Below are positions 664-19,018 of a stretch of 64,000 bases of DNA, one piece after another. This stretch comes from Escherichia phage SME50. Both the position numbers and the translations under genes were made by a program. The first letter of the stretch is position 1. Each line of letters opens with the position of its first letter. Where the stretch lies: sequence record MT887289.1; one strand, written 5' to 3'. The notes beneath the pieces are model-generated. The model saw only the letters and a program-made list of their open reading frames with translations, had not been told where the DNA came from and ran no database searches.

Positions 664-1863
664 ATGAACAAAGTACAGATTATTAAAAAGAACGGCTCAC
701 TTGAAGAACCTGATATCAAAAAAGTTTTAGCAGCAGTAACTAAGTCAGCTAACAGAGTTGGGTATAAAGAACTCCCACCAGATGTTACCCAAGCTCTTGA
801 GTCAGCATTTATGAGGATTCTGGTAAAGTCCACTAAGCAGAATAATTTGCTCATCTCGGTAAACGATATTCACAGTATTGTTGAAGGTGCTTTGGCAGAA
901 GTCAATCACGAGATTTATGAGTCTTACTCAACATACAGAAATTACCGTAAAGAGGTTGCTCAAAATTGGGATGAGCTTTACCAAAAGACTAAAGACACAC
1001 TCTTCTTAGGTGACCGTGAAAACGCTAACTTTGACAGTAGTTTAATTTCTACAAAAGGCTCAATTATTCGTGGTTACCTGACTAAAGAAATCTTTAAACA
1101 GTACCATTTAACACCAGAGGAACTTGAAGCCATTGAAAAAGGGTTTATCTACATCCATGACTTAAGAGACCTAATTTTTGGTGGGATTAACTGTTGCCTG
1201 TTCGACATTGGTAAAGTACTGAAAGGTGGCTTTGAAATGTCTGGCATCGAATACTGTGAACCAAAGTCTGTACTGTCAGCCTTACAAGTTATCGGTGATG
1301 TAGTTCTTTCAGCAACTGCACAGCAATTTGGTGGATTTACTTTAGCAGAGATTGATAAGGTGCTTGTACCGTATGCTAAGAAGTCTCTACGCTATCATGC
1401 TGAGAAAGCAGCATCTTACGGTATTCCTAAAGAACATTACCATAATTATGTCATGGAGCAGCTACAGATTGAATTAACTCAAGGTTTCCAGTCACTAGAG
1501 ATGAAGCTAAATACTGTACCTTGCAGCCGTGGTGATTTCGCATTCACAACTTTAACATTTGGTTTACTTGACTCAGACATGTCTAATGAAGACAACCGAC
1601 TACAATACATGATTGCAAACACCATTCTTGATGTTCGCATGAATGGACAAGGTAAGAGCAAGAAGCCTGTTGTATTCCCTAAACTGGTTTATATTCATGA
1701 CCAGAAGAGACACGATGAGAATATCTGTCAAGGTCAACTGTACAGTAAAGCTATTGAGTGTTGCTCTAAAGCAATGTATCCAGATTTCTTAAGCGTATCT
1801 GGTCATGGTGCTGTAGCAGAGGCTTTTGAGCGTTCTGGCAAGGTCATTTCACCGATGGGTTAA
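664..1863 (+). CDS. nrdD: anaerobic ribonucleoside-triphosphate reductase, N-terminal portion (exon 1 or upstream fragment)
   Basis: 399-aa ORF with ATP-cone-like N-terminus (VQIIKKNGSLEEPDIKKV); the glycyl-radical C-terminal part is a separate downstream ORF. Confidence 0.8.
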   Translation: MNKVQIIKKNGSLEEPDIKKVLAAVTKSANRVGYKELPPDVTQALESAFMRILVKSTKQNNLLISVNDIHSIVEGALAEVNHEIYESYSTYRNYRKEVAQNWDELYQKTKDTLFLGDRENANFDSSLISTKGSIIRGYLTKEIFKQYHLTPEELEAIEKGFIYIHDLRDLIFGGINCCLFDIGKVLKGGFEMSGIEYCEPKSVLSALQVIGDVVLSATAQQFGGFTLAEIDKVLVPYAKKSLRYHAEKAASYGIPKEHYHNYVMEQLQIELTQGFQSLEMKLNTVPCSRGDFAFTTLTFGLLDSDMSNEDNRLQYMIANTILDVRMNGQGKSKKPVVFPKLVYIHDQKRHDENICQGQLYSKAIECCSKAMYPDFLSVSGHGAVAEAFERSGKVISPMG

Positions 1864-2640
1864 CAAGCTCTATAGCTCATCTAAAACGTGCCTAAACAGG
1901 GAAACTCTACAGGTGTAGACAATCCTGTGCTAAATGATGTACGATGTAAGAAACTATATAAAATAGGAGTATTACATGCCAAATTATCATGTTACTGAGG
2001 ACGGAAGAGTCTTTAGGAAAAATGGTGTAGAACTTACGCAGTGGAAATCCAACACTGGTTATATGAAAGTAAGGTTTTATGGAAGGAAGAATCGTGACAT
2101 GTATGTCCATAGGTTAGTTGCTGAAAAGTATGTACCTAACCCTAACAATCTTCCAATTGTAAAACACAAAGATGATAACAAACTGAACAACCATGCTTCT
2201 AACTTAGAATGGGGAACTCATTCTGAGAATGTTAAAGAAGGCTATGAGAATGGTTGCTACAAGTTTTGTAAGCGTTCATATGCTGTGAAGGCTACACATA
2301 AAGTGACAAAAGAAGTTATTGTTGCTAAGTCAATACGAGAGTTATCTAATGTACTTGGGTATAATCGCAAGACTATCTCTTCAATATTGAAGGGTGTAAA
2401 AGAGTATAATAACTTTGAACATGATTTTGAGTACATTTAAATGCCGAACGACTAACCGTGATGAATGTAGCGGTGTAGGGTCAAGCGACTCGAAATGGTA
2501 CGCTACTTAGAAATAAGTAGAAGATATAGTCTGGACTTACTGGTGACAGTAAGCAGCTTGAATAAAGCGGGGTAAGCGTAGCGAACTTACCTGAACAACA
2601 AGTGTAGAGCGTTTTTATCACCATATCTTAATGAGGATGG
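1864..2640 (+). mobile_element. intervening sequence in nrdD carrying an HNH endonuclease ORF (putative group I intron or free-standing homing-endonuclease insertion); 3' boundary approximate
   Basis: About 0.8 kb separates two NrdD halves in the same orientation; contains HNH ORF 1976-2440; NrdD-like frame is open from 2582. Confidence 0.45.
1976..2440 (+). CDS. HNH homing endonuclease (AP2-like C-terminal region)
   Basis: 154-aa ORF with His/Asn-rich HNH-type motif (HKDDNKLNNHASNLEWGTHSEN); located inside nrdD. Confidence 0.75.
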   Translation: MPNYHVTEDGRVFRKNGVELTQWKSNTGYMKVRFYGRKNRDMYVHRLVAEKYVPNPNNLPIVKHKDDNKLNNHASNLEWGTHSENVKEGYENGCYKFCKRSYAVKATHKVTKEVIVAKSIRELSNVLGYNRKTISSILKGVKEYNNFEHDFEYI

Positions 2641-2683
2641 GGAAGAGTTCTATGTTGGTCGTGCTAACATTGGTGCTGTATCT

Positions 2684-3550
2684 TTGAACTTGCCTATGAT
2701 TTACCAGTATTCTAAAGAGAATGGTTTAGATTTCTGGAAAGAGCTTGATAAGTACCTAGAGATGATTCGCAGCTTCCACAAGAAACGCTACGAAATGATT
2801 GCTAATATGCCAGCAAGTTCTAACCCTCTTGCATTCACACAAGGTGGTCTGTACAAAGGGACTAAGAAACCTACTGATAAGGTTGGTTGGGATATTGTGA
2901 AGTCTTTCACAGCTTCTTTTGGGGTTACTGCTCTTGATGAGTTGTCGGTTCTTGCTGAGGGTAAACGACTCCATGAAGTTGGAAGCTATAGTTTTGCATA
3001 CGATGTTCTGGCATACATTAACATGAAAACTGAGGAGTTTAAAAATGAAGATGGCTTCTTATATGCCGTCTATGGTACTCCAGCAGAATCACTTTGCGGG
3101 ACTCAGCTAAAACAGTTCAGAGATATGTTTGGCGTTATCAAAGGTGTTTCTGATAAGGAATACTTTACAAACAGTTTCCATATGAATGTTGCAGCGGATA
3201 TCTCACCATTTGAGAAGCAGGACTTAGAAGAACCATTCTTCCATATCTGTAGAGGCGGCAGAATCCAGTATGTGAGGGTAGCTAACCCAGAAAACTTACC
3301 AGCACTTAAAAGTTGTATTACAAGAGGCATGTTGAAGGGTTTTTATCAGGGACTTAACTTTGACTTAGCAATCTGTGAACATTGTGGTAACAGACCAAAG
3401 GCTGATGTTGAAGAATGTGAGGTTTGCCATTCACATGACATCTCTGTGATTAACAGGGTGTGTGGTTATCTTGGATGGACTAAGATTAAAGGTGAATCAC
3501 GAATGAACGATGCAAAAATTGCTGAGATTCGTGACAGGGTTTCTATGTAA
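2684..3550 (+). CDS. nrdD: anaerobic ribonucleotide reductase, C-terminal glycyl-radical portion (true exon start probably upstream, about 2600-2640)
   Basis: Zn-ribbon CEHCGNRP...CEVCHSHD and glycyl radical motif RVCGYLGW near the C-terminus; track ORF begins at a TTG. Confidence 0.8.
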   Translation: MNLPMIYQYSKENGLDFWKELDKYLEMIRSFHKKRYEMIANMPASSNPLAFTQGGLYKGTKKPTDKVGWDIVKSFTASFGVTALDELSVLAEGKRLHEVGSYSFAYDVLAYINMKTEEFKNEDGFLYAVYGTPAESLCGTQLKQFRDMFGVIKGVSDKEYFTNSFHMNVAADISPFEKQDLEEPFFHICRGGRIQYVRVANPENLPALKSCITRGMLKGFYQGLNFDLAICEHCGNRPKADVEECEVCHSHDISVINRVCGYLGWTKIKGESRMNDAKIAEIRDRVSM

Positions 3551-4332: not shown

Positions 4333-4818
4333 ATGAATTACATGGAGATTCGACCATTCGACACAGCTAATGGTGAAGGGGTTCGTGTAAGCCTCTTCGT
4401 AGCTGGCTGCAAACATCACTGTGAAGGCTGCTTTAACAGGGAGTCTTGGAAGTTTAATGCTGGTAAAGAGTTTACTTATGCAAACCTCTACGGCATCATT
4501 AAATTAATGGATGATGAGGCCATCAGTGGGTTGTCAATACTTGGTGGAGAACCTCTTGATGACAGAAACATTCAAGAAGTCACCAACATATGTAAACGTA
4601 TTAAAACTGTTTACCCAGAAAAGTCTATCTGGCTCTGGACAGGTTTTCAGTTACACGAAAAAATTCATCTAGATGTGATGAAATATGTTGACGTGGTGAT
4701 TGATGGTAAGTATGATTCTTCTAAACCAACAGTTAAACCATATCGTGGTTCTGATAACCAAAACCTCTGGAGAAAAGAGTATGGATGGCAAGGCGATTGT
4801 CAATGGCGAGCAGAGTAA
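4333..4818 (+). CDS. nrdG: anaerobic ribonucleotide reductase activating protein (radical SAM)
   Basis: CKHHCEGC (CxxxCxxC) radical-SAM cluster motif near N-terminus; about 160 aa; adjacent to nrdD. Confidence 0.85.
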   Translation: MNYMEIRPFDTANGEGVRVSLFVAGCKHHCEGCFNRESWKFNAGKEFTYANLYGIIKLMDDEAISGLSILGGEPLDDRNIQEVTNICKRIKTVYPEKSIWLWTGFQLHEKIHLDVMKYVDVVIDGKYDSSKPTVKPYRGSDNQNLWRKEYGWQGDCQWRAE

Positions 4819-6273: not shown

Positions 6274-6544
6274 AGAGAAGTGGGAGATTTTACCACTAGT
6301 CAGTGAGGGTGGTAATGGTTGTGAAATGTATATGATACGAGGTCATGTTCCAGAACCAATTGCACTTGAGATGGTAAACAATTTTACAGATGGCTCTTAC
6401 AAAGATTTAGGAGAACCAACTGTCAAGCAACAATGGGTTAAACCTGTACCAGACAGCACAGGTAACTGTAGTGTACTTTATCACGTTGTAGACCCTGCAA
6501 AATGCAAATCTGCAATGGCAGTAACAAACGTAACTTTTAATTGA
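6266..6544 (+). CDS. hypothetical protein
   Basis: 92-aa ORF overlapping neighbours by a few nt. Confidence 0.5.
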   Translation: MAKEKWEILPLVSEGGNGCEMYMIRGHVPEPIALEMVNNFTDGSYKDLGEPTVKQQWVKPVPDSTGNCSVLYHVVDPAKCKSAMAVTNVTFN

Positions 6545-6555
6545 GAGAGAAAACT

Positions 6556-7437
6556 ATGAAAACATCTATCCGTGTTACAGTTCATTCACCAACTAAAGGG
6601 ACTCATGAAGAAGAGTTTAACATCATCCAATTCCCTTCTGGTGAGATTGGTGGACACTTTTCACCAGAGTTTGTTGACTTCACTGCTTATGCAGCATCAT
6701 CTATCAACAATGTGATTATGATTGTAAAAGGTTATGATAAAGATACATTGTTTGCTGTGGCACTTGCTAAAGAGGCGGTGGACAACTTAGTACCTCATAA
6801 GTTTGCTATGAAGACTGTCATCTTTTACTATTTGCCAAATGCACGTTACGACCGTCACATGTTTAAAGGTGATGCAGCAGCTTTGAAAGTGTTTGCACAA
6901 CAGGTTAATGCAATGGGTTTCGATGCAGTCTGTGCAGTTGACTCTCACAGTTATGTACCAGATAACCTGTTTAACTGCTTCCAGAGTATCCCCCAAAAGG
7001 AGATTGCAGTCCACTATGCGAATGACCCACTGGTTGATTACTTAGTAGCCCCAGATGCAGGTGCTGCTAAGAAGATTGCAGAGACCGCTAAAGAGGTGGA
7101 TAAACCATACATCACAATGTCTAAAGTGCGTAACCTTAAGACTGGTGAGATTACCGGTATGCGAATCCTCGATGATGTTGATTTGACAGATAAAACTGTC
7201 ATGATTCTGGACGACATCTGTGATGGAGGTCGTACCTTCATAGAGGCAGCTAAACATCTCCGTGAAGCAGGTGCAAAACGTGTGGAACTCTATGTAACAC
7301 ATGGTATCTTCTCTAAAGATGTTGAAAACCTTCTTGACAACGGTATTGACCACATCTACACTACAAACTCTTTAGGGGAAGCTAAAGACCGTGGATTAAC
7401 ACATTATAGTCAAGTTACTGTAGCAAATTTGGATTAG
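6556..7437 (+). CDS. ribose-phosphate pyrophosphokinase (Prs)-family enzyme; candidate ADPR-pyrophosphate synthetase (Adps) of a NARP1-type NAD+ reconstitution pathway
   Basis: PRPP-binding-loop-like motif VMILDDICDGGRTF followed by AKRV...THGIFS, as in Prs enzymes; ATG at 6556 (track ORF begins at TTG 6541); sits next to a NAMPT-like gene. Confidence 0.7.
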   Translation: MKTSIRVTVHSPTKGTHEEEFNIIQFPSGEIGGHFSPEFVDFTAYAASSINNVIMIVKGYDKDTLFAVALAKEAVDNLVPHKFAMKTVIFYYLPNARYDRHMFKGDAAALKVFAQQVNAMGFDAVCAVDSHSYVPDNLFNCFQSIPQKEIAVHYANDPLVDYLVAPDAGAAKKIAETAKEVDKPYITMSKVRNLKTGEITGMRILDDVDLTDKTVMILDDICDGGRTFIEAAKHLREAGAKRVELYVTHGIFSKDVENLLDNGIDHIYTTNSLGEAKDRGLTHYSQVTVANLD

Positions 7438-7445
7438 GTATTAAA

Positions 7446-7937
7446 ATGGATAAGGGTTACTTCGAAAAATACCTAAGATACGAACCAGAGACAGGTTTAC
7501 TAATTTGGAAAGTAACCCTTTGCAATACCGCTATTGCTGGCAATGTTGCTGGCACAAGGTCTAAGAAGGGTTATATCCAAGTTCAGATAAATAAGAAGAG
7601 GTACTATGCACATAATATTGCATGGATTATGTCTGGAGGTGAGATACCAAGTGGATATGAGATAGACCACATAGACCTTGATAAAACTAATAATAAGTTG
7701 GAGAACTTAAGACTTAGCACAAAGTCACAAAATCAGAGGAATAGAGGCATACACAAGAATAATAAAACTGGTGTGAAGGGTGTAAGTTTTTGTAAACAAA
7801 CAGGTCTTTACAAAGCAAGAGTCATGCTTTACCATAAAGAATACTTTTGTGGAAGATTTAAAACGGTAGAAGAAGCAAAAGAAGCTGTAATTAAAAAGCG
7901 AATAGAACTTCATGGTGAGTTTGCAAGACATAACTAA
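7446..7937 (+). CDS. HNH homing endonuclease
   Basis: 163-aa ORF with HNH-type motif (YYAHNIAW...EIDHIDLDKTNNKLENL) and AP2-like C-terminus; inserted between the two NAD+ genes. Confidence 0.7.
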   Translation: MDKGYFEKYLRYEPETGLLIWKVTLCNTAIAGNVAGTRSKKGYIQVQINKKRYYAHNIAWIMSGGEIPSGYEIDHIDLDKTNNKLENLRLSTKSQNQRNRGIHKNNKTGVKGVSFCKQTGLYKARVMLYHKEYFCGRFKTVEEAKEAVIKKRIELHGEFARHN

Positions 7938-7951
7938 GAGAGAGATAAAAT

Positions 7952-9733
7952 ATGAGTAATTCACTTTACGCAGTACCAGCAGGTCTTAATGCAGATGCTT
8001 ACAAGGCATCACATATATATCAGTATCCAGATGCTACACAGTATCTTATGTTGAACCTGACACCACGTAGTGACAAATGGTTTAACAGCCCCTTAGCAAT
8101 TGACGGTGTAGTGGCTTTTGGTATTCAACGTTTTGTTAAAGATTACCTGATAGACCACTGGAACGCCACCTTCTTCGAACGTGACAAAAAAGAAGCAATT
8201 GATGAAATCTTAGAAGTCATGAACGGCGTTCTGGGTAAAGATGCTATTGGTCGAGAACATTGGGAAGCACTCCACGACTTAGGTTATCTACCAGTTGAAG
8301 TCTACGCTGTAGAAGAAGGTACAGTTGTCCCTATGCGTGTGCCAATGATTGTCTTCCAGAACACTGTTTCAGGTTTCCATTGGGTAGCGGGGTATCTGGA
8401 AGATGCTTTCTCTGCTGAGATTTGGAAGGCTTGTACCATTGCAACTATTGCATTGCACTACAAACGTATCTGTAAGAAGTGGTCTGACCTTACTTGTGAC
8501 AACGACTTGCATTTGCCTTATCAGTGCCATGATTTTGCTATGCGTGGTATGTCCGGCTTTACTGATGACGCATTTAACGCTGTAGGCCACTTAACCAGCT
8601 TTAAAGGGACTGATAGCTTCCCTGCTGTATATACAGCTAAACGCATCTACGGTCAGTCCTACCCAATCTCTGATATTGGTAGCTCTGTACCAGCCACTGA
8701 ACACTCTGTAATGTGTGCAAACATTGCTTGGGAAGGTGGTAATGAGTTGATTGAAGAAGAAAGACGCTTTAAAGGTGAGTTACAAACCTTCCGTCGATTC
8801 TTAACAGAGACTTACCCAACTGGTATTGCAAGTGTTGTTTCAGATACTTATAATTTCTGGAGAACTGTATCAGTCATATTGCCAGAACTCCGTAAAGAGA
8901 TTATGGAACGTGATGGAAAACTGGTAATTCGTCCTGACTCTGGAGACCCTGTACATATTGTCACAGGCTATAAAGCAATCCACTTAGAGTGTGCTAAAAA
9001 GGCTTATTACGAACACCTAAGCAAGCTGGAAGCCAGCGACACAATGTTGAATGCTGTTCTGAACATGAAGCTTGAAAACATCAACTATGGTATTGCTGGG
9101 TGGCTACTGTCAGAAGGCTACGAAATGGTTGTTGACAGAGAAGACTTTGAAGTTGCTGATACAGTGCTGTTGAAAAATGCTTACATGGTTGGTTCTGCAA
9201 ACGTTGTAACACGTCCTGTAGCAGAGATTGATGGTGCTATTAAGACCCTGTATAACATCTTTGGAGGGACTATCAACTCTAAAGGTTTTAAGGTACTGGA
9301 TGAGCACATTGGCCTTATTTATGGTGACTCTATCACGTTGGAACGTGCAAACGAAATCCTGAAACGTTTGTATGAAATGGGTTTTGCAAGCTCTAACGTA
9401 GTGTTTGGTGTAGGTTCTTATACTTACCAGTACATGACTCGTGACACCTTTGCATTTGCTGTCAAAGCAACTCTTGCAAGTATTGGTGGTAAAGAGATTA
9501 TGCTTGCAAAAGACCCTAAAACAGATAGCGGTGTTAAGAAGTCTGCTTTTGGTGGTGTAGCACCCATGTGGGATGGTGATAAGCTGAAAGCTGTAGATGG
9601 CTATGGATTCCAGAGCTTTGCAGATGTGCTTGAACATCCAGCTTGTGCTTTACGTTTAGTCTTTAGTGACTCTGAGCAGTTCGGTTACACAACTCTTGGT
9701 GATATTCGAAATAATATTGACAAGCAACTTTAA
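7952..9733 (+). CDS. nicotinamide phosphoribosyltransferase-family enzyme (NadV/NAMPT-like); candidate nicotinamide ADPR transferase (Namat)
   Basis: 593-aa ORF; N-terminus YAVPAGLNADAYKASHIYQYP is characteristic of NAMPT-family enzymes; paired with the Prs-like gene. Confidence 0.75.
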   Translation: MSNSLYAVPAGLNADAYKASHIYQYPDATQYLMLNLTPRSDKWFNSPLAIDGVVAFGIQRFVKDYLIDHWNATFFERDKKEAIDEILEVMNGVLGKDAIGREHWEALHDLGYLPVEVYAVEEGTVVPMRVPMIVFQNTVSGFHWVAGYLEDAFSAEIWKACTIATIALHYKRICKKWSDLTCDNDLHLPYQCHDFAMRGMSGFTDDAFNAVGHLTSFKGTDSFPAVYTAKRIYGQSYPISDIGSSVPATEHSVMCANIAWEGGNELIEEERRFKGELQTFRRFLTETYPTGIASVVSDTYNFWRTVSVILPELRKEIMERDGKLVIRPDSGDPVHIVTGYKAIHLECAKKAYYEHLSKLEASDTMLNAVLNMKLENINYGIAGWLLSEGYEMVVDREDFEVADTVLLKNAYMVGSANVVTRPVAEIDGAIKTLYNIFGGTINSKGFKVLDEHIGLIYGDSITLERANEILKRLYEMGFASSNVVFGVGSYTYQYMTRDTFAFAVKATLASIGGKEIMLAKDPKTDSGVKKSAFGGVAPMWDGDKLKAVDGYGFQSFADVLEHPACALRLVFSDSEQFGYTTLGDIRNNIDKQL

Positions 9734-13880: not shown

Positions 13881-13905
13881 AGGCTGCTTCGGCGGCCTTT
13901 TTTAT
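13881..13905 (+). terminator. rho-independent terminator after rIIB
   Basis: AGGCTGC-TTCG-GCGGCCT hairpin followed by TTTTTT. Confidence 0.6.
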
Positions 13906-13964
13906 TTGTATTTTGTGCAGAGTGCTGTATAATTGTTGTCACGATAAACTAAACAGGAGAACCA

Positions 13965-14513
13965 ATGAAGAAGTTGATTCTAGGTTTGTGCTTAATGTTT
14001 ACAGCACACTTATCTTATGCAGTTGACTGCCCAGAGCTATCAATTAGCCAAAAAGTAAACATGTTAAAAGCTTACCAGTATGGTGAGAATAATATGGGTA
14101 AAGGTTGGGGTATCACTCTAGCTGCTATAGCCTTACAAGAGTCAGAGTTAGGTCTGAAGGTAGAGAATAAAAAGACCCATGACTATGGTATCTTCCAGAA
14201 TCACTTGAAGACTGTTGTAAAGCGTAACAAAATCAGTCCTAATGTGGCTAAAAAGAAACTCTTAAAAGACTTTGACTATGCTGCAAAGGAAACACACAAA
14301 GAGCTTGAGTTTTGGACTAAGGTACATGGTCAACCAAAGTCAAAGAAGACTTTACAAAAAGTTTTAGCGTCATATAATGCTGGGTATTCGTACAAAATCC
14401 CTAAAGCTAAGAAATACTCTCAAGATGTTTACAACAATATGAAAGTCATCGCTCAATGTGAATTTGCAACAAACATTTCTAAGGTAAACCATGAAAAAAT
14501 TAAGAAAGTCTGA
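13965..14513 (+). CDS. secreted lytic transglycosylase-like (SLT domain) protein
   Basis: N-terminal signal peptide (MKKLILGLCLMFTAHLSYA); motifs AIALQESELG, DYGIFQNH, YNAGYSY. Confidence 0.5.
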   Translation: MKKLILGLCLMFTAHLSYAVDCPELSISQKVNMLKAYQYGENNMGKGWGITLAAIALQESELGLKVENKKTHDYGIFQNHLKTVVKRNKISPNVAKKKLLKDFDYAAKETHKELEFWTKVHGQPKSKKTLQKVLASYNAGYSYKIPKAKKYSQDVYNNMKVIAQCEFATNISKVNHEKIKKV

Positions 14514-15186
14514 TGAAGTCCTGTGCCATGCTTACGACTTGCACCCTCATGAGTTAGGTCTTGATTCCTGTGTATGGACTCCAGAACAGTGCAGAGATTT
14601 TGAAGATACTGCAAGAGAAGTTGTATGTTCACTTGAAGAGTTCCACACATCAGAACCAATTGTGAGCGTTGTGGACAAAGAGACTGGACAATCTATAGGT
14701 GTAAGACGTGACAGTTTAGTCATAGTCAATAAAGACCTTGTAGAAAAAGGTAACCTAATCTTAGCAGATATTGATGGTGTTCTTACAAATTTTAATCACG
14801 AAGATTGCTCAACGGAATTGACTGATGGGTCATTCTCACAGTACACTAATCTTCTTGACTCTGTAAGAGCAAAACCAACGTATGTTTTCAGTATCATTGA
14901 TGCAATTGCTAATCATGCTGCCATTGGACTCTTGACAGCAAGAGGTGAATCTCAGAGAATACCTACTGAGATGTTTTTAAGGCATAACATAGAGCATGAT
15001 TACATGCTTTTTATGCGTGGTTTTGGAACTAACTCTATAAGTGCAGAAAGTTTAAAAGTTAGGATGATTCAGTCTTGCATTCTTCCTTACTTTAATATAG
15101 TATGCTTTATAGAAGATACAGAGAAGAATGTTCAGAAGGTAAACAGAATCCTTCCACACATTAAAACCATGTTAGTAAAACATTGA
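14491..15186 (+). CDS. HAD-superfamily hydrolase-like protein
   Basis: Motif LILADIDGVLTN resembles HAD motif I (DxDGxL). Confidence 0.4.
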   Translation: MKKLRKSDEVLCHAYDLHPHELGLDSCVWTPEQCRDFEDTAREVVCSLEEFHTSEPIVSVVDKETGQSIGVRRDSLVIVNKDLVEKGNLILADIDGVLTNFNHEDCSTELTDGSFSQYTNLLDSVRAKPTYVFSIIDAIANHAAIGLLTARGESQRIPTEMFLRHNIEHDYMLFMRGFGTNSISAESLKVRMIQSCILPYFNIVCFIEDTEKNVQKVNRILPHIKTMLVKH

Positions 15187-15661: not shown

Positions 15662-15673
15662 GGTTAAGATACA

Positions 15674-15695
15674 GGCTCCTTCGGGAGCCTTTTTC
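15674..15695 (+). terminator. rho-independent terminator
   Basis: GGCTCC-TTCG-GGAGCC hairpin followed by TTTTT. Confidence 0.6.
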
Positions 15696-15713: not shown

Positions 15714-16061
15714 ATGACATTTAAAGAGTTCTGTCAAGCTACTTTCATAATTGTTTTCTTAGTTGGAGCAGGTGTCTGGGGAGGATACTCTTACAGAGAC
15801 TACCAAGTTGCTGAGACTGAGCTAAATAATGAGAAACTAATAAGTGTTGCTAAAGATGCTTATCAGGAAGGTTTAGCCACACTCAGCACCAATTACAAAA
15901 ATGATTTGAAAGATGTGCTTGCTAAGAATAAGCATACAAAAGAGGTACTAACATATGAAAAAACTAAGCCAGAGTTTTATAATGTTTGTGTTACTGATAA
16001 TTATGTCAGGGTGTTCAACGAACAAAGTGAACAGTACATTCAAAAACTCCCAAGTAAGTGA
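15714..16061 (+). CDS. candidate i-spanin (Rz-like)
   Basis: N-terminal TM segment followed by a charged helical region; its 3' end is overlapped by a lipoprotein ORF in another frame. Confidence 0.5.
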   Translation: MTFKEFCQATFIIVFLVGAGVWGGYSYRDYQVAETELNNEKLISVAKDAYQEGLATLSTNYKNDLKDVLAKNKHTKEVLTYEKTKPEFYNVCVTDNYVRVFNEQSEQYIQKLPSK

Positions 16062-16224
16062 GAGTGACAAGTACACTCAAGAAGAGTCAAGATTCACTGT
16101 CAAAGGTAATACTGGTAGTGATGTGGCAGCAGCCCTTGAGTTTTATCGTGACGGTTTTTACCAGTGCACAATCAAAGCTAATAACCTTATTGATATGATT
16201 TTATTAGGAAACAAACAGCAATGA
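15955..16224 (+). CDS. candidate o-spanin (Rz1-like outer-membrane lipoprotein)
   Basis: Signal peptide with lipobox (IIMSGC); overlaps the 3' end of the putative i-spanin, the classic overlapped spanin layout. Confidence 0.5.
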   Translation: MKKLSQSFIMFVLLIIMSGCSTNKVNSTFKNSQVSESDKYTQEESRFTVKGNTGSDVAAALEFYRDGFYQCTIKANNLIDMILLGNKQQ

Positions 16225-16490
16225 CAGAGAATGAAGACACTTTCTATGTAGAAGGGTACTTACTGCTACCACGACCAAAAGAAACTTATATGCGGGTTGA
16301 TTTCTCACCAACCATTATGGATAACGTGATGTGCCATATCTTTATGCAAGGTGTCACAGCACAGCTTAAGCATGTTGGTAAAGAGTGCAAAATAAAGGTT
16401 GACACTCATCCAGAAATCAAAGAGAATCACTACACATGGTTCTTACCAGACTCTAAAGAAATCTTAGCAGTTCTTAAAACGAGGAAATGA
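16221..16490 (+). CDS. hypothetical protein
   Basis: 89-aa ORF, overlapping stop/start. Confidence 0.45.
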   Translation: MTENEDTFYVEGYLLLPRPKETYMRVDFSPTIMDNVMCHIFMQGVTAQLKHVGKECKIKVDTHPEIKENHYTWFLPDSKEILAVLKTRK

Positions 16491-16801
16491 TTATGCAATT
16501 CCAGCCAACAAATCGTGGATTTTCTTATGCAGAATTTAAAGATGCTAAAGGAGAGATTTGTACTTTACAAGAAAGTTCATCATATGAACCATGTATCTGG
16601 TTAGGTGCTAAAGAGGTCTCTGTTCAGTACCTAGATGGTGGCTGGAAAACACTTGATATCCCAGCATTAGTAGGCAAAGATTTTGTAGGTAACCAAAGAA
16701 TGAAACTCAACCAAGAACAGGTGAAAGAGTTATTGCCATACCTTCAGTACTTTGCTGAAAATGGTGAATTACCAACAGAGGAACTTACAAATGCAGATTA
16801 A
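16487..16801 (+). CDS. hypothetical protein
   Basis: 104-aa ORF. Confidence 0.45.
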   Translation: MIMQFQPTNRGFSYAEFKDAKGEICTLQESSSYEPCIWLGAKEVSVQYLDGGWKTLDIPALVGKDFVGNQRMKLNQEQVKELLPYLQYFAENGELPTEELTNAD

Positions 16802-17117
16802 TGGAAGAGACTTTGTAGCTGTTTACTATGAGAAAGATAAAGAAGTTGGCGTAGCACAAGTATCTTATGGTAATGGTAAGTGGTTGTATGGAACAATCGC
16901 AGTAGTCGGAACAAGGAGTGATACAAAAACTTTTAAAGATTGTGTTGACCTTCTTGAAGAATCCATCCACAATCATTGGTGTCTGATATGGATGACTGAC
17001 AACGAAGTGATAGAACGCTTCAAAAAGATTGGTATCAACATTGATAGCATTGAGCATGTTGATTTGTATGAGCTAACTGAGAAGGTAAACTATGAAAGTA
17101 ATACTAGCCAGAGATAA
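16791..17117 (+). CDS. hypothetical protein
   Basis: Internal ATG (MQINGRDF) of track ORF 16752-17117 gives the usual short overlap with the upstream gene. Confidence 0.4.
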   Translation: MQINGRDFVAVYYEKDKEVGVAQVSYGNGKWLYGTIAVVGTRSDTKTFKDCVDLLEESIHNHWCLIWMTDNEVIERFKKIGINIDSIEHVDLYELTEKVNYESNTSQR

Positions 17118-17325
17118 AAAGACACGTAAGATTGTAAGTTCAGCAGTATTCAAAGGGAGACATGAAGTCGTCCCGTTTGCAGGAGAAGATGTGTTAACTT
17201 ACAAGAAGGTGATGAAACGTGAGTTCAGTAACCATTTCCGTGACTTCTTCTCTGAACCATTAGAAGATTTTAAAAGTCGTTGTGGTAAAGGTATCATCAC
17301 TCAAGAGGTAATTATTCATGGCTGA
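17092..17325 (+). CDS. hypothetical protein
   Basis: 77-aa ORF. Confidence 0.4.
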   Translation: MKVILARDKKTRKIVSSAVFKGRHEVVPFAGEDVLTYKKVMKREFSNHFRDFFSEPLEDFKSRCGKGIITQEVIIHG

Positions 17326-17518
17326 CTTCTGCAAAGACTGCTCTATCGAAATGTTCGGACGTGATACAGGTGACTTAAAAGGTCTTATCACTGAAGACGA
17401 CTTTAAAGCTGGCTATGCAATGCCAGTAATCTGTGAAGGTTGTGGATGTATCTGGGTAGACCATGAAGGGCAACGTGTAAAACCTTCAGAAGATAAAGAA
17501 TCTTGGGAGAGATGCTAA
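17318..17518 (+). CDS. small Cys-rich (zinc-binding?) protein
   Basis: 66-aa ORF with CKDC...CEGCGC. Confidence 0.4.
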   Translation: MADFCKDCSIEMFGRDTGDLKGLITEDDFKAGYAMPVICEGCGCIWVDHEGQRVKPSEDKESWERC

Positions 17519-18304
17519 ATGGGTATTGTAAAAATTATCAATGGGGATATCTTCTCAGCATTTGATAAAGGTAAGTTTGATATCATTGGTCACGGTTGCA
17601 ACTGTATGAACTTAATGGGTGCAGGTATCGCTGACAAGATTTCTAAACTTTACCCAAAAGCATATGAGACTGATACAGAAGTTTATCTGTATGCAGGAGG
17701 TATAGGTCACAAACCCTGTGAAAATTTACTAGGCAACTTCTCTGTAGCACGTTTAAAACAAGGACGTATAGCTAACCTTTACACTCAGCTTAAGACTGGT
17801 AAAGATGCCCGATACAGTGCTTTAGAGTCATCTTTGAAACAGCTTAACAGATACTGTGAAGTCAATCAGTTGAAGAAAGTTGGGTTACCTATGATTGGTG
17901 CAGGTATCGGTGGACTAGACCCTCAAGCCGTCACAGTTATCATTAATCAGGTGATGAAGAGTGTAGATGTGTATCTGTATGTCTACGAAGGAGAGATGTA
18001 CCACAAGTTACGCTCAGGTTGGAAGAACTACTGTGAACCAGAATACTTTGCAGGTGTAGTAGTGTTCACTGATGATGCAGTTACCCTCTTCAGACGAAGA
18101 AAAGGTAAGATACATCAAAGTAACCCTCCGGTTGAAAAGATGTCTCTAAGTAACGCTCTAGTTACCCACCTGTCGAAGAGCAATCACAGAATTGCAGTAA
18201 CATTTGGCAGTGATGCAGATACATATATCTATGCAAGAACTGATGAGGATGTTGAGGAAATTTTCTCTTCACCGGAAGTAACCTTCTTAGACGCAAAGAA
18301 CTAA
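17519..18304 (+). CDS. macro-domain-like protein (ADP-ribose binding/processing) with C-terminal extension
   Basis: N-terminal IINGDIFSAF...DIIGHGCNCMNLMGAGIA and later GLPMIGAGIGG resemble macro-domain Gly-rich loops. Confidence 0.5.
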   Translation: MGIVKIINGDIFSAFDKGKFDIIGHGCNCMNLMGAGIADKISKLYPKAYETDTEVYLYAGGIGHKPCENLLGNFSVARLKQGRIANLYTQLKTGKDARYSALESSLKQLNRYCEVNQLKKVGLPMIGAGIGGLDPQAVTVIINQVMKSVDVYLYVYEGEMYHKLRSGWKNYCEPEYFAGVVVFTDDAVTLFRRRKGKIHQSNPPVEKMSLSNALVTHLSKSNHRIAVTFGSDADTYIYARTDEDVEEIFSSPEVTFLDAKN

Positions 18305-18375
18305 GAAACTCTGTAGAATATTCACAATAGGTTAAGCCTTTCTTATCTGGTAAATTTTTCAGGTAAGGAGGGCTT

Positions 18376-18571
18376 TTTCATTTCAGGATTGTGCAGGTAG
18401 AGTTCTGGACAGAAATCTGTAGAGAAAATTTTGAACTCCAAAGAGAAAATTCATTTTCAAACTGTGCAGGTAATCTCCAAAGAGCTTTTTCATTTTCAAA
18501 ACGTGCAGACCCCGCTCAGGTCGGGCAAGAAAAATCATTTTAGAATTGTGCAGGTAGGTGGGTGCAGGTGG
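18376..18571. repeat. four direct repeats of about 22 bp (TTCATTTTCAAAnnGTGCAGGT) in an intergenic region
   Basis: Copies near 18376, 18449, 18488, 18535, followed by GTGGGTGCAGGTGGGG. Confidence 0.6.
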
Positions 18572-18743
18572 GGATGTCGCCATTTCTCACAAGGCTACCA
18601 CATCTGAAAAGAAAAGTCAACAGAAAAATTTGTAGCGGATTGAAAAATAATTCTTGATTGTAGTTCTGTTTTGTGGTAGTCGCGTGCGCCCGTTTCATTA
18701 CAGTTTTTGCAAAAATATTTTTAAAATTCCTATTGACTCTTTG

Positions 18744-18772
18744 AATATGGTTATCTAATATTTGCATCAGAC
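18744..18772 (+). promoter_or_regulatory. sigma70-like promoter for the small-gene cluster
   Basis: TTGACT - 17 nt - TAATAT. Confidence 0.5.
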
Positions 18773-18811
18773 GGGCAATCAAGCCCACTTCCTAAACTGG
18801 AGAATCAAAAA

Positions 18812-19018
18812 ATGCTTTACAGTCGTGAATTGATGGTTACAACTAACGTTAACACAAAGGTAAAACGTTTTTATATGCAAGTGTGCGGCGCATGGCGTAG
18901 AATATCAGAAGCTGATTATTGCAACTATGTAGAAACGGCAATCAATTCTAATTGCTACCTTACGAAGAATACAAAGCGACATATAAAACAGACAGCGGTT
19001 TACTATTACGATATATAA
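18812..19018 (+). CDS. small hypothetical protein (small-gene cluster)
   Basis: 68-aa ORF preceded by GGAGAATCAAAAAATG leader. Confidence 0.5.
   Translation: MLYSRELMVTTNVNTKVKRFYMQVCGAWRRISEADYCNYVETAINSNCYLTKNTKRHIKQTAVYYYDI

What the first reader, a model, noticed from the sequence alone, without database searches (positions are those of the whole stretch)
17519..18304. Macro-domain-like protein in the early/metabolic region
The N-terminal half shows Gly-rich loops resembling macro (ADP-ribose binding/hydrolysing) domains. Phage macro domains can reverse ADP-ribosylation or degrade ADP-ribose-derived signals. Together with the NAD+ gene pair this suggests a broader NAD+/ADP-ribose module. 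The roughly 110-aa C-terminal extension is unassigned.
Basis: partly seen in the sequence, partly recalled or inferred. Interest (0 to 1): 0.5.

Follow-up and report, generated by a model that had tools for sequence, protein, structure and literature searches.

The report
Phage macrodomain enzyme with orphan tail
This Felix O1-like phage gene does encode an ADP-ribose-processing macro domain, related to recently described phage counter-defence enzymes and fused to a small domain found almost nowhere else; the enzyme type is already known and its target in this phage is untested.

Summary
ORF 17519-18304 (+, 261 aa) has an N-terminal macro domain (res 1-157): Pfam Macro scores 32.3 bits against a cut-off of 22, and the confident AF2 model matches TARG1 and DarG at target-normalised TM 0.80-0.85. 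A structured C-terminal domain follows (res 158-261).

The window is a Felixounavirus, where GenBank already calls this gene "putative phosphatase" or "macro domain-containing protein". The macro domain belongs to the ALC1/TARG1/DarG/SCO6735/Poa1p class. It carries Gln (Q90, invariant "NLYTQ") where DarG and TARG1 have their catalytic Lys, as in SCO6735.

It is 35% identical to T4 Tk.4 (AdfM, which genetically counters DarTG2) and 27% identical to Vibrio phage Gary Adpp, an ADPR-1''-phosphate phosphatase that feeds the NARP1 NAD+ pathway and counters aRES. Its local motifs are T4-like.

The "NAD+ gene pair" is NARP1, first described in the close relative Bas63. It lies 8-11 kb upstream in a different transcription unit, so the "module" idea is only partly supported.

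The best reading is an accessory anti-defence ADP-ribose-1''-X hydrolase, most likely acting on DarT2-modified DNA. The main rival is the Adpp role.

The parts
17519..18304 (+). Complete gene: 261-aa macro domain plus C-terminal domain protein (ortholog of Bas63 bas63_0095, 'putative phosphatase')
   Evidence: ORF; PHROG_335 E=2.7e-113 over the full length; 99.6% aa identity to the vB_EcoM_Shy 'putative phosphatase'; Bas63 annotation
17519..17989 (+). Macro domain (residues 1-157), ALC1/TARG1/DarG/SCO6735/Poa1p class, Gln-type
   Evidence: Pfam Macro above the gathering score; PDB profile hits; Foldseek TARG1 and DarG at target-normalised TM 0.80-0.85; 35% identity and E 8e-24 to T4 Tk.4
17591..17605 (+). 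H25-G-C-N28-C motif. H25 is equivalent to Gary Adpp H24 (H24A was the Adpp mutation used) and, by inference, Poa1p H23. N28 is equivalent to DarG N22 and PhiKZ AdfM N23
   Evidence: Translation; invariant in the family; Adpp H24A primer entry; DarG N22/K80; alignment to PhiKZ gp104
17774..17788 (+). N86-L-Y-T-Q90 motif. Q90 occupies the position of the catalytic Lys of TARG1 (K84), DarG (K80) and PhiKZ AdfM (K78), and of the essential Gln85 of SCO6735
   Evidence: Translation; HMM alignment NLYTQ against TARG1 YLITK; BLASTP alignment to PhiKZ FPTK; SCO6735 Q85 equivalence and the inactive Q85A mutant
17888..17914 (+). P124-MIGAGIGG132, the Gly-rich diphosphate-binding loop of the macro fold
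   Evidence: Translation; P124, G127 and G129 invariant; aligned to TARG1 'MPRIGCGLD'
17990..18301 (+). C-terminal orphan domain (residues 158-261): one linker helix, six beta-strands and a C-terminal helix; no conserved polar or catalytic residues
18334..18375 (+). Terminator-like hairpin (17-bp stem plus T-run) 30 nt after the stop codon; the macro gene is the last cistron of its unit
15673..15690 (+). Upstream terminator-like hairpin that separates the spanin-to-macro unit (about 15714-18304) from the upstream genes, including NARP1
6541..9733 (+). Context, not the same operon: NARP1 NAD+ reconstitution genes (Adps-like 6541-7437, Namat-like 7952-9733), interrupted here by an HNH endonuclease ORF (7446-7937)
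   Evidence: Pfam; Bas63 genes 79-80 are NARP1; 41% identity of Namat to the Vibrio phage Pylo NARP1-AP Namat

Best explanation
The gene encodes a two-domain accessory protein. Its N-terminal domain is very likely a catalytically competent macro domain of the widespread phage Tk.4 family. This family belongs to the ALC1-like class and is a 'Gln-type' variant: the catalytic Lys of DarG and TARG1 is replaced by Gln, as in SCO6735, while the His and Asn of the H-x-x-N motif are retained. Enzymes of this kind bind ADP-ribose and hydrolyse whatever is attached to its C1'' position. I commit to the following as the most likely in-vivo role. Like its closest characterised homolog, T4 Tk.4/AdfM, the protein removes ADP-ribose that the host DarT2 toxin places on thymidines of phage single-stranded DNA, which restores replication and so counters the DarTG2 defence. 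The 104-aa C-terminal domain is a lineage-specific, fast-evolving, non-catalytic module packed against the macro domain. By inference only, it tunes targeting through substrate or partner binding. Shown here: the domain identities, the conservation of catalytic-position residues, homology to T4 AdfM, dispensability of the Bas63 ortholog in the published screen, and the operon structure. Inferred: the hydrolase activity, the DNA substrate, the DarTG2 target, and any role for the C-terminal domain.
For: Macro fold and family. DarG is the best and only hit in NCBIfam (1.2e-12) and PADLOC (3.7e-13). The closest characterised homolog is T4 Tk.4 (35% identity, E 8e-24), which the HIDEN-SEQ preprint shows is the single T4 gene needed to resist DarTG2; that preprint names it AdfM. 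The motifs HGCNC, MG[AS]G[IV]A, NLYTQ followed by a short loop, and P-x-IGAGIG are shared with T4 Tk.4 and its clade, and differ from the Adpp signature H-Q-x-N-C / N[LV]YGQY plus a long loop. Gln at the catalytic-Lys position is compatible with DNA de-ADP-ribosylation: SCO6735 has Gln85 there, cleaves thymidine-linked ADPr-DNA, and its Q85A mutant is inactive. The gene is not in the NARP1 operon. The Bas63 ortholog, gene 95, is dispensable on lab strains and in the defence-strain sheets retrieved (fitness +0.6 to +1.1), as expected for a conditional anti-defence gene. It is conserved across Felixounaviruses: 257 phage records cover at least 80% of the protein.
Against: No experiment exists for any Felixounavirus protein. 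The T4 evidence is genetic only, and no biochemistry has been done on a Gln-type phage macro acting on DNA. The biochemically proven DNA de-ADP-ribosylating AdfM (PhiKZ gp104) is a Lys-type DarG-like protein only 24% identical to this one. The window protein is not nested in the T4 clade in a neighbour-joining tree, and whole-domain HMM scores do not favour T4-type over Adpp-type (99.2 against 111.7 bits). It retains the His that was mutated (H24A) in the Adpp inactivation construct. Every lineage carrying the fusion also encodes a Namat-like gene about 9-10 kb upstream. The extra C-terminal domain is absent from both characterised AdfM proteins.
Confidence: 0.4

Rival explanations
1. Adpp-like role. 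The macro domain is an ADP-ribose-1''-phosphate phosphatase. It converts ADPR-1''P, the product of RES-domain NAD+ phosphorolysis by the aRES defence, into ADPR, the substrate of the phage's own NARP1 pathway (Adps + Namat). This would extend NAD+ reconstitution to aRES-carrying hosts, with the phosphatase encoded in trans rather than inside the NARP1 operon.
For: The phage encodes NARP1. Adpp of Vibrio phage Gary is a homolog from the same Gln-type family (27% identity, E 1e-13; 30% identity to the Pylo/Thalassa Adpp-type protein), and purified Gary Adpp converts ADPR-1''P to ADPR. H24, the residue mutated in the Adpp inactivation construct, is conserved here as H25. Poa1p, the yeast ADPR-1''P phosphatase, is among the top profile hits (3.9e-15). 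Fusion-type macro genes always co-occur with a Namat-like gene in a conserved block, even at about 33% protein identity. A relative, P0026, fuses the same macro type to a predicted cyclic-phosphate-processing cREC domain, which hints at small-molecule ADPr-phosphate substrates. aRES occurs in E. coli.
Against: The gene is 15 genes and about 8 kb from NARP1, in a separate unit bounded by terminator-like hairpins, whereas Adpp was defined by lying within two genes of Adps or Namat. No Escherichia, Salmonella, Erwinia or Klebsiella phage appears in the authors' list. 11 of 12 sampled Adpp proteins cluster apart and share a different signature (H-Q-x-N-C; N[LV]YGQY plus a long aromatic loop), while the window protein has the T4-type motifs. 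T4-type proteins exist in phages whose characterised function (T4 Tk.4) is independent of NARP1. The co-occurrence may simply reflect conserved Ounavirinae-like synteny.
Confidence: 0.27
2. Generalist. The Gln-type phage macro family hydrolyses several ADPr-1''-X substrates, and this one protein serves both roles: it reverses DarT2 DNA modification and also recycles ADPR-1''P (possibly also the ADPR-cyclic-phosphate by-product of NARP1).
For: T4 AdfM, Gary Adpp and the window protein are about equally related to each other (35%, 27-30% and 34%). They share the invariant His/Asn/Gln positions. NARP1-adjacent macros are not monophyletic within the family: phiAbaA1, L049/L064, L057 and L076 are scattered. 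Macro domains of this class are known to be versatile: SCO6735 acts on both DNA and protein substrates, and the Aravind survey lists the range of 1''/2''-linked substrates. NARP1 generates ADPR-cP by decay of ADPR-PP.
Against: No member of the family has been assayed on both substrates. The distinct loop signatures of the T4-type and Adpp-type proteins suggest specialisation.
Confidence: 0.18
3. Other ADPr-linked role: reversal of protein or RNA ADP-ribosylation, degradation of ADPR-derived immune signals (Thoeris-type), clean-up of RNA-repair by-products alongside the nearby PNK-like gene, or a non-catalytic ADPr sensor.
For: TARG1 (a protein and OAADPr hydrolase) is the top PDB sequence and fold match. 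A PNK-like gene (14491-15186) is conserved a few genes upstream in all fusion-bearing lineages. The broad substrate range of macro domains is documented.
Against: The TARG1 catalytic dyad is absent: K84 is replaced by Q90, and D125 aligns with a Gly in IGAGIGG. No KptA/Tpt1-type gene was seen near the locus (the PNK-like ORF itself gave no Pfam hit). Invariant active-site-position residues argue against a pure sensor. No characterised homolog supports these roles.
Confidence: 0.15

Closest known systems
T4 Tk.4 = AdfM (anti-DarT factor Macrodomain; HIDEN-SEQ preprint 10.1101/2025.11.20.689424)
   Same: Homologous macro domain (35% identity over residues 3-157, E 8e-24). Same motifs: HGCNC, MG[AS]G[IV]A, NLYTQ with a short following loop, and P-x-IGAGIG. 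Both carry the legacy annotation 'phosphatase' (A1pp motif). Both are non-essential accessory genes of virulent enterobacterial myoviruses.
   Different: T4 Tk.4 is a 155-aa single-domain protein, whereas this protein has an extra 104-aa C-terminal domain. The two fall in different clades of the family tree. T4 Tk.4 lies in a different genomic context (tk-vs region). A DarTG2 phenotype is shown only for T4.
Adpp of Vibrio phage Gary (NARP1-AP pathway; preprint 10.64898/2026.01.28.702374)
   Same: Same Gln-type phage macro family (27% identity, E 1e-13). The His corresponding to H24 and the Asn and Gln positions are conserved. The host phage also encodes NARP1.
   Different: Adpp sits between Adps and Namat, whereas this gene is about 8 kb away in another transcription unit. 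Adpp has the H-Q-C-N-C and NVYGQYHW motifs with a longer loop. Adpp is a single domain of 158 aa.
PhiKZ gp104 AdfM and bacterial DarG2 macrodomain (Taq 5M31/5M3E, Mtb 5M3I)
   Same: Same ALC1-like macro class and fold (Taq DarG at target-normalised TM 0.80; DarG HMM hits). The catalytic Asn is conserved (N28).
   Different: The catalytic Lys (K80 in DarG, K78 in PhiKZ; 'FPTK-HWR') is replaced by Gln. Identity to PhiKZ gp104 is only 24% (E 2e-4). The NCBIfam DarG score of 47.7 bits is far below the 250 cut-off and covers only the macro part of the model. There is no DarT partner and no DarG-type C-terminal domain.
SCO6735 (Streptomyces coelicolor macrodomain hydrolase, PDB 5E3B)
   Same: An ALC1-like macro with Gln at the catalytic-Lys position. 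It cleaves thymidine-linked ADPr from DNA, so it provides the mechanistic precedent for a Gln-type enzyme. Profile E 2.6e-15.
   Different: It is a bacterial, DNA-damage-regulated protein. It has a longer, basic mobile loop (K89, K94) and no C-terminal extension. The residue-level alignment to it was not inspected here; equivalence is inferred through TARG1 K84.
Human TARG1/OARD1 and yeast Poa1p
   Same: Top sequence and fold matches. Poa1p supplies the ADPR-1''P phosphatase precedent.
   Different: TARG1's K84/D125 dyad is absent (Q90, and Gly at the Asp position). These are eukaryotic proteins with unrelated biology.

Membership tests
Macro domain superfamily (Pfam PF01661) | Sequence match to the family HMM above the curated gathering score | tested here: met
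   32.3 bits against a cut-off of 22, E=1e-7, residues 25-141 covering profile positions 2-117 of 118
Macro domain superfamily (Pfam PF01661) | Three-layer alpha/beta/alpha macro fold | tested here: met
   AF2 pLDDT 90.7; Foldseek against the PDB gives TARG1 at target-normalised TM 0.81-0.85 and DarG at 0.77-0.80, probability 1.0. This rests on a predicted model, not an experimental structure
Macro domain superfamily (Pfam PF01661) | Binds ADP-ribose or a derivative | not testable with these tools
   The Gly-rich loops and the H/N/Q positions are conserved, but binding needs an assay
ALC1-like class (TARG1 / DarG / SCO6735 / Poa1p) | Closest relatives among solved macrodomains are class members | tested here: met
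   Top profile hits are TARG1, Mtb DarG, SCO6735, Poa1p, 2AFC, 2FG1 and Taq DarG at E 4e-17 to 1.4e-13. The next hits (TTHA0132/2dx6 and 7omu) score about 2e-7, and viral nsP3 macro domains score about 3e-3
ALC1-like class (TARG1 / DarG / SCO6735 / Poa1p) | Catalytic Lys (TARG1 K84, DarG K80) | tested here: not met
   Q90 aligns to TARG1 K84 and PhiKZ K78. This is the SCO6735-type Gln variant. Gln is invariant in the 31-sequence alignment and nearly universal across the phage family (one Lys and one Glu exception)
DarG2 antitoxin (NCBIfam NF048014 equivalog) | Score at or above the curated equivalog cut-off | tested here: not met
   47.7 bits against 250
DarG2 antitoxin (NCBIfam NF048014 equivalog) | C-terminal DarT-binding domain | tested here: not met
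DarG2 antitoxin (NCBIfam NF048014 equivalog) | Encoded next to a darT toxin gene | tested here: not met
   Neighbours are small phage ORFs and spanins. No ART or DarT is annotated in pEP20 or Bas63. The neighbours were not individually profiled for DarT
AdfM, T4 Tk.4 type | Homology to T4 Tk.4 with shared active-site motifs | tested here: met
   35% identity, E 8e-24; shared HGCNC, NLYTQ with a short loop, and P-x-IGAGIG
AdfM, T4 Tk.4 type | Stand-alone macro protein of about 150 aa | tested here: not met
   261 aa with an extra folded domain. The T4 clade is 151-159 aa
AdfM, T4 Tk.4 type | Required for phage growth on DarTG2 hosts | not testable with these tools
   The PhageMaP panel for Bas63 contained no DarTG
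Adpp (NARP1-AP phosphatase) | Encoded within the NARP1 operon (within two genes of Adps or Namat) | tested here: not met
   15 genes and about 8 kb downstream (bas63_0095 against bas63_0079/80); terminator-like hairpin between them; constant 9-10 kb offset in 16 Felixounavirus loci and in divergent lineages
Adpp (NARP1-AP phosphatase) | The His corresponding to Gary Adpp H24 (mutated to Ala in the authors' inactivation construct) | tested here: met
   H25 aligns with Gary H24. It is also present in T4 Tk.4, so it does not discriminate
Adpp (NARP1-AP phosphatase) | Sequence signature of the NARP1-associated set (H-Q-x-N-C; N[LV][YH][GA]Q[YK] plus an extended loop) | tested here: not met
   The window protein has H-G-C-N-C and NLYTQ with a short loop. 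11 of 12 sampled Adpp-set proteins cluster separately. This signature is my own observation, not a published criterion
Adpp (NARP1-AP phosphatase) | ADPR-1''P phosphatase activity | not testable with these tools
   Requires an enzyme assay

The most novel reading that the evidence does not exclude
The Ounavirinae-type protein is a two-pronged counter-defence factor. The Gln-type macro domain is a generalist ADPr-1''-X hydrolase that both erases DarT2 marks from phage DNA and returns ADPR-1''P (and perhaps NARP1's ADPR-cyclic-phosphate by-product) to the NARP1 NAD+ reconstitution pathway. The orphan, fast-evolving C-terminal domain binds and blocks a host defence protein such as DarT2 or aRES. 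This would be functionally analogous to, but evolutionarily independent of, the two-domain logic of the DarG antitoxin.
Probability: 0.12. Interest if true: 0.65.

Novelty: new variant of a known kind. Interest (0 to 1): 0.38.

Why it matters
Phage macrodomains were assigned counter-defence roles only in 2025-2026: AdfM against DarTG2 and Adpp against aRES. This analysis shows that T4 AdfM and Adpp belong to one Gln-type family that lacks the canonical catalytic lysine, so annotation by homology cannot yet tell the two functions apart.

The Felixounavirus version is a useful test case. Its close relative Bas63 is the phage in which NARP1 was discovered. Bas63 is genetically tractable, and its gene-95 ortholog is dispensable in the published screen, so plating a single deletion mutant on DarTG2 and aRES hosts would settle the question.

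The orphan C-terminal domain is a concrete new element whose function, if it binds a host defence component, would be of interest. For phage therapy, Felix O1-like phages are widely used against Salmonella and E. coli, and knowing which defences they neutralise helps predict host range.

Tried and rejected
1. DarG equivalog membership is rejected: the NCBIfam score is far below the cut-off, there is no catalytic Lys, and there is no DarG C-terminal domain.

3. The C-terminal domain elsewhere in biology: an exhaustive HMM search of 1.84 billion representatives found about five credible clusters, all macro fusions. P0032 and P0039 are truncated fragments, and the long multi-stretch hits look spurious. 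This also excludes HMMER-detectable homology to other phage proteins.

4. The C-terminal domain as related to the cREC domain of relative P0026 is rejected (hhalign probability 0.1%).

5. The C-terminal domain as a generic basic DNA-binding module is not supported: pI ranges from 4.8 to 9.5 across homologs.

6. Discriminating AdfM from Adpp by competing HMMs was inconclusive (111.7 against 99.2 bits). The neighbour-joining tree places the fusion clade apart from both. These trees are low-resolution, distance-based and have no support values.

7. Seeding Adpp-type loci from Pylo gp175 returned only close relatives. I used the preprint's Table S1 instead.

8. I looked for per-phage aRES or DarTG data on Felixounaviruses in the text of four papers and found none.

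9. An Rfam scan of the downstream gap found nothing.
Full report
**1. What is there.** The window contains an ORF at exactly 17519-18304 on the + strand (261 aa). Its ATG abuts the TAA stop of the preceding 66-aa ORF and is preceded by a GGGAGAG motif. The region is 96.7% identical at the DNA level to Escherichia phage vB_EcoM_Shy and matches 245 phage records, almost all of them Felix O1-like phages (Felixounavirus) of Escherichia, Salmonella, Shigella and Citrobacter. In those records the gene is annotated "putative phosphatase", "phosphatase", "macro domain-containing protein" or "hypothetical protein". In the BASEL phage Bas63 (JohannRWettstein) it is bas63_0095.

**2. The macro domain is real.**
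- Pfam Macro (PF01661) matches residues 25-141 at E=1e-7, scoring 32.3 bits against a gathering score of 22.
- PHROG_335 ("phosphatase") matches the full length at 2.7e-113.
- A profile built from 31 homologs hits solved macrodomains of one class: TARG1/OARD1 4e-17, M. tuberculosis DarG 4.6e-16, SCO6735 2.6e-15, Poa1p 3.9e-15 and T. aquaticus DarG 1.4e-13. Viral nsP3 macrodomains reach only about 3e-3.
- An AlphaFold2 model from that alignment is confident (pLDDT 90.7, pTM 0.89). Foldseek places it on TARG1 (target-normalised TM 0.81-0.85), Taq DarG (0.80), Mtb DarG (0.77) and Poa1p (0.75).
- The only hits in NCBIfam and PADLOC are to DarG (1.2e-12 and 3.7e-13). They cover only the macro part of those models, and the NCBIfam score of 47.7 bits is far below the equivalog cut-off of 250.

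**3. Active-site anatomy.** Across the family the invariant positions are H25, G26, N28, C29, M33, G36, A38, N86, L87, T89, Q90, P124, G127 and G129 (coordinates verified).
- N28 corresponds to the catalytic Asn of DarG (N22) and PhiKZ AdfM (N23).
- Q90 occupies the position of the catalytic Lys: window "NLYTQ" aligns with TARG1 "YLITK" (K84) and with PhiKZ "FPTK" (K78).
- TARG1's partner Asp125 aligns with a Gly.

This is not a sign of inactivity. SCO6735 has Gln85 at the same position, removes thymidine-linked ADP-ribose from DNA, and its Q85A mutant is inactive (PMC9411070). H25 corresponds to H24 of the phage phosphatase Adpp, the residue changed to Ala in the authors' inactivation construct (supplementary primer table).

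**4. Relation to characterised phage macrodomains.** The literature now offers two functions.

(a) *AdfM.* T4 Tk.4 was the single T4 gene required on DarTG2 hosts, and a clean knockout sensitised T4 to DarTG2 (preprint 10.1101/2025.11.20.689424). PhiKZ gp104 removes DarT2-made ADP-ribose from DNA in vitro (PMC13309987).

[quoted passage not shown] It converts ADPR-1''-phosphate, the product of the aRES defence, into ADPR for NARP1 (preprint 10.64898/2026.01.28.702374).

Direct comparisons:

| Pair | Identity | E-value |
|---|---|---|
| Window vs T4 Tk.4 | 35% | 8e-24 |
| Window vs Gary Adpp | 27% | 1e-13 |
| Window vs Pylo/Thalassa Adpp-type | 30% | 1e-15 |
| Pylo Adpp-type vs T4 Tk.4 | 34% | 6e-20 |
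| Window vs PhiKZ gp104 | 24% | 2e-4 |

T4 AdfM, Adpp and this protein are therefore members of one Gln-type phage macro family. A tblastn search matches 2849 of 50,697 phage records. PhiKZ AdfM is a separate, DarG-like Lys-type protein.

In a sample of 12 proteins from the authors' NARP1-associated list, 11 cluster apart. They share "H-Q-x-N-C" and "N[LV][YH][GA]Q[YK]" followed by a longer, aromatic-rich loop. The window protein and its clade share "HGCNC" and "NLYTQ" plus a short loop with the T4 clade.

Two tests did not discriminate. Whole-domain HMM scores were 111.7 bits for the Adpp HMM and 99.2 bits for the T4-clade HMM. In neighbour-joining trees the fusion clade is separate from both groups. 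These trees carry no support values.

**5. The NAD+ gene pair and the "module" idea.** ORFs 6541-7437 (PRPP-synthetase-like) and 7952-9733 (Nampt-like) are the orthologs of Bas63 genes 79-80. NARP1 (Adps + Namat) was discovered in that very operon (preprint 10.1101/2024.02.11.579819).

The macro gene is not part of the operon. It lies about 8 kb and 15 genes downstream, beyond rIIA, rIIB, a PNK-like gene and the spanins. Terminator-like hairpins at 15673-15690 and 18334-18375 bracket a separate unit in which the macro gene is the last cistron.

The 9-10 kb offset holds in 16 Felixounavirus loci. It also holds in three divergent metagenomic lineages whose fusion proteins are only 33-41% identical to this one. 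Co-occurrence with a Namat-like gene is thus universal among known carriers of the fusion, but it cannot be told apart from conserved genome synteny. The preprint's list of NARP1-associated macro proteins contains no enterobacterial phage.

**6. The C-terminal domain.** Residues 158-261 fold as a linker helix, six beta-strands and a C-terminal helix.
- No Pfam family matches; the best hit is a sub-threshold PH-domain match at E 0.21.
- BFVD returns only the ortholog from phage SUSP2.
- An exhaustive profile search of 1.84 billion representative proteins found about five credible clusters. All are macro fusions or truncated fragments of them.
- Only P174, G179 and Y236 are conserved, which argues against an enzyme.
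- Identity between subgroups is 18-26%, lower than for the macro domain.
- Net charge is not conserved.
- The domain is unrelated to the DarG C-terminal domain and to the cREC domain that a relative, P0026, carries on the same macro type.

Among 80 related viral loci, only the Felixounavirus-type proteins (261-264 aa) carry the extension. Its function is unknown. The inference that it is a binding or targeting module rests only on the absence of catalytic conservation and on its fast evolution.

**7. Functional-genomics evidence.** In the PhageMaP data set, Bas63 gene 95 has positive fitness scores (about +0.6 to +1.1; "essential" is below 0) on laboratory strains and in the defence-strain sheets retrieved. 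The paper reports g79 and g80, not g95, as counters of Sir2-HerA. Neither DarTG nor aRES was in that panel. The gene is therefore dispensable and conditionally useful, as expected for a counter-defence factor.

**8. Verdict.** Very likely (about 0.9), this is an active ADP-ribose-1''-X hydrolase of the phage Tk.4 family with a lineage-specific orphan domain. For the physiological substrate I rank the options as follows:

| Role | Confidence |
|---|---|
| DarT2-modified DNA (AdfM-like) | 0.40 |
| ADPR-1''P for NARP1 (Adpp-like) | 0.27 |
| Both (generalist) | 0.18 |
| Other | 0.15 |

The AdfM-like role ranks first because of the closest characterised homolog, the shared loop and motif signature, and the gene's location outside the NARP1 operon. 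The Adpp-like role is kept alive by the conserved His, universal co-occurrence with a Namat-like gene, and the macro-cREC relative. The domain type and its annotation are already public. What is new is the placement in the Gln-type AdfM/Adpp family, the ambiguity between the two functions, and the orphan C-terminal domain. I classify it as a new variant of a known kind, of moderate interest.

Noticed in passing
window 18369-18553 (intergenic, just after the terminator-like hairpin at 18334-18375): Four direct copies of a ~28-nt repeat with the core TCATTT-N7-GTGCAG (18378-18396, 18451-18469, 18490-18508, 18535-18553), plus one 1-mismatch copy at 13902-13920 between rIIB and the next gene. That is 5 matches in the window against 0.58 expected by chance. 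There is no Rfam hit in 18200-19000. Bas63 annotates two small minus-strand ORFs at this place, and pEP20 annotates nothing. It may be a regulatory or promoter-associated array.
   Followed up: partly
window 7446-7937: An HNH_3 homing-endonuclease ORF (163 aa) sits between the two NARP1 genes (Adps-like 6541-7437, Namat-like 7952-9733). In Bas63 those genes are separated by only about 45 bp with no HNH. A divergent relative (L090) has an HNH ORF just after Namat instead.
   Followed up: partly
window 664-3550: The anaerobic ribonucleotide reductase gene nrdD is split in two: 664-1863 (ATP-cone plus the N-terminal part of NRDD) and 2684-3550 (the C-terminal part of NRDD plus the glycyl-radical domain). 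An HNH_3 endonuclease ORF (1976-2440) lies between them, which suggests an intron or homing-element interruption. The activase-like radical-SAM ORF is at 4333-4818.
   Followed up: partly
P0026 (metagenomic protein; loci L092 1250-2269 and L093 261-1280): A relative with the same NLYTQ-type macro domain is fused to a different C-terminal domain, Pfam cREC_REC (predicted cyclic-phosphate processing). This hints that some members of the macro type act on small-molecule ADPr phosphates. It is a single cluster on two short contigs.
   Followed up: partly
window 15714-16224: The transcription unit that ends in the macro gene begins with overlapping ORFs annotated in Bas63 as i-spanin and o-spanin (window 15714-16061 and 15955-16224). 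The locus is therefore not clearly an 'early/metabolic' region.
   Followed up: no
L078 9998-10453 and L074 2234-2710 (IMG/VR loci): Rare members of the Gln-type phage macro family carry Lys (NLYTK, L078) or Glu (NAYTE, L074) at the catalytic position. These are natural variants that could inform the mechanism.
   Followed up: no
Phage macro family as a whole: T4 AdfM (anti-DarTG2) and Vibrio phage Adpp (ADPR-1''P phosphatase), published separately under different names, are homologs at about 34% identity. They share the same His/Asn/Gln active-site positions. None of the papers read here makes this connection.
   Followed up: yes
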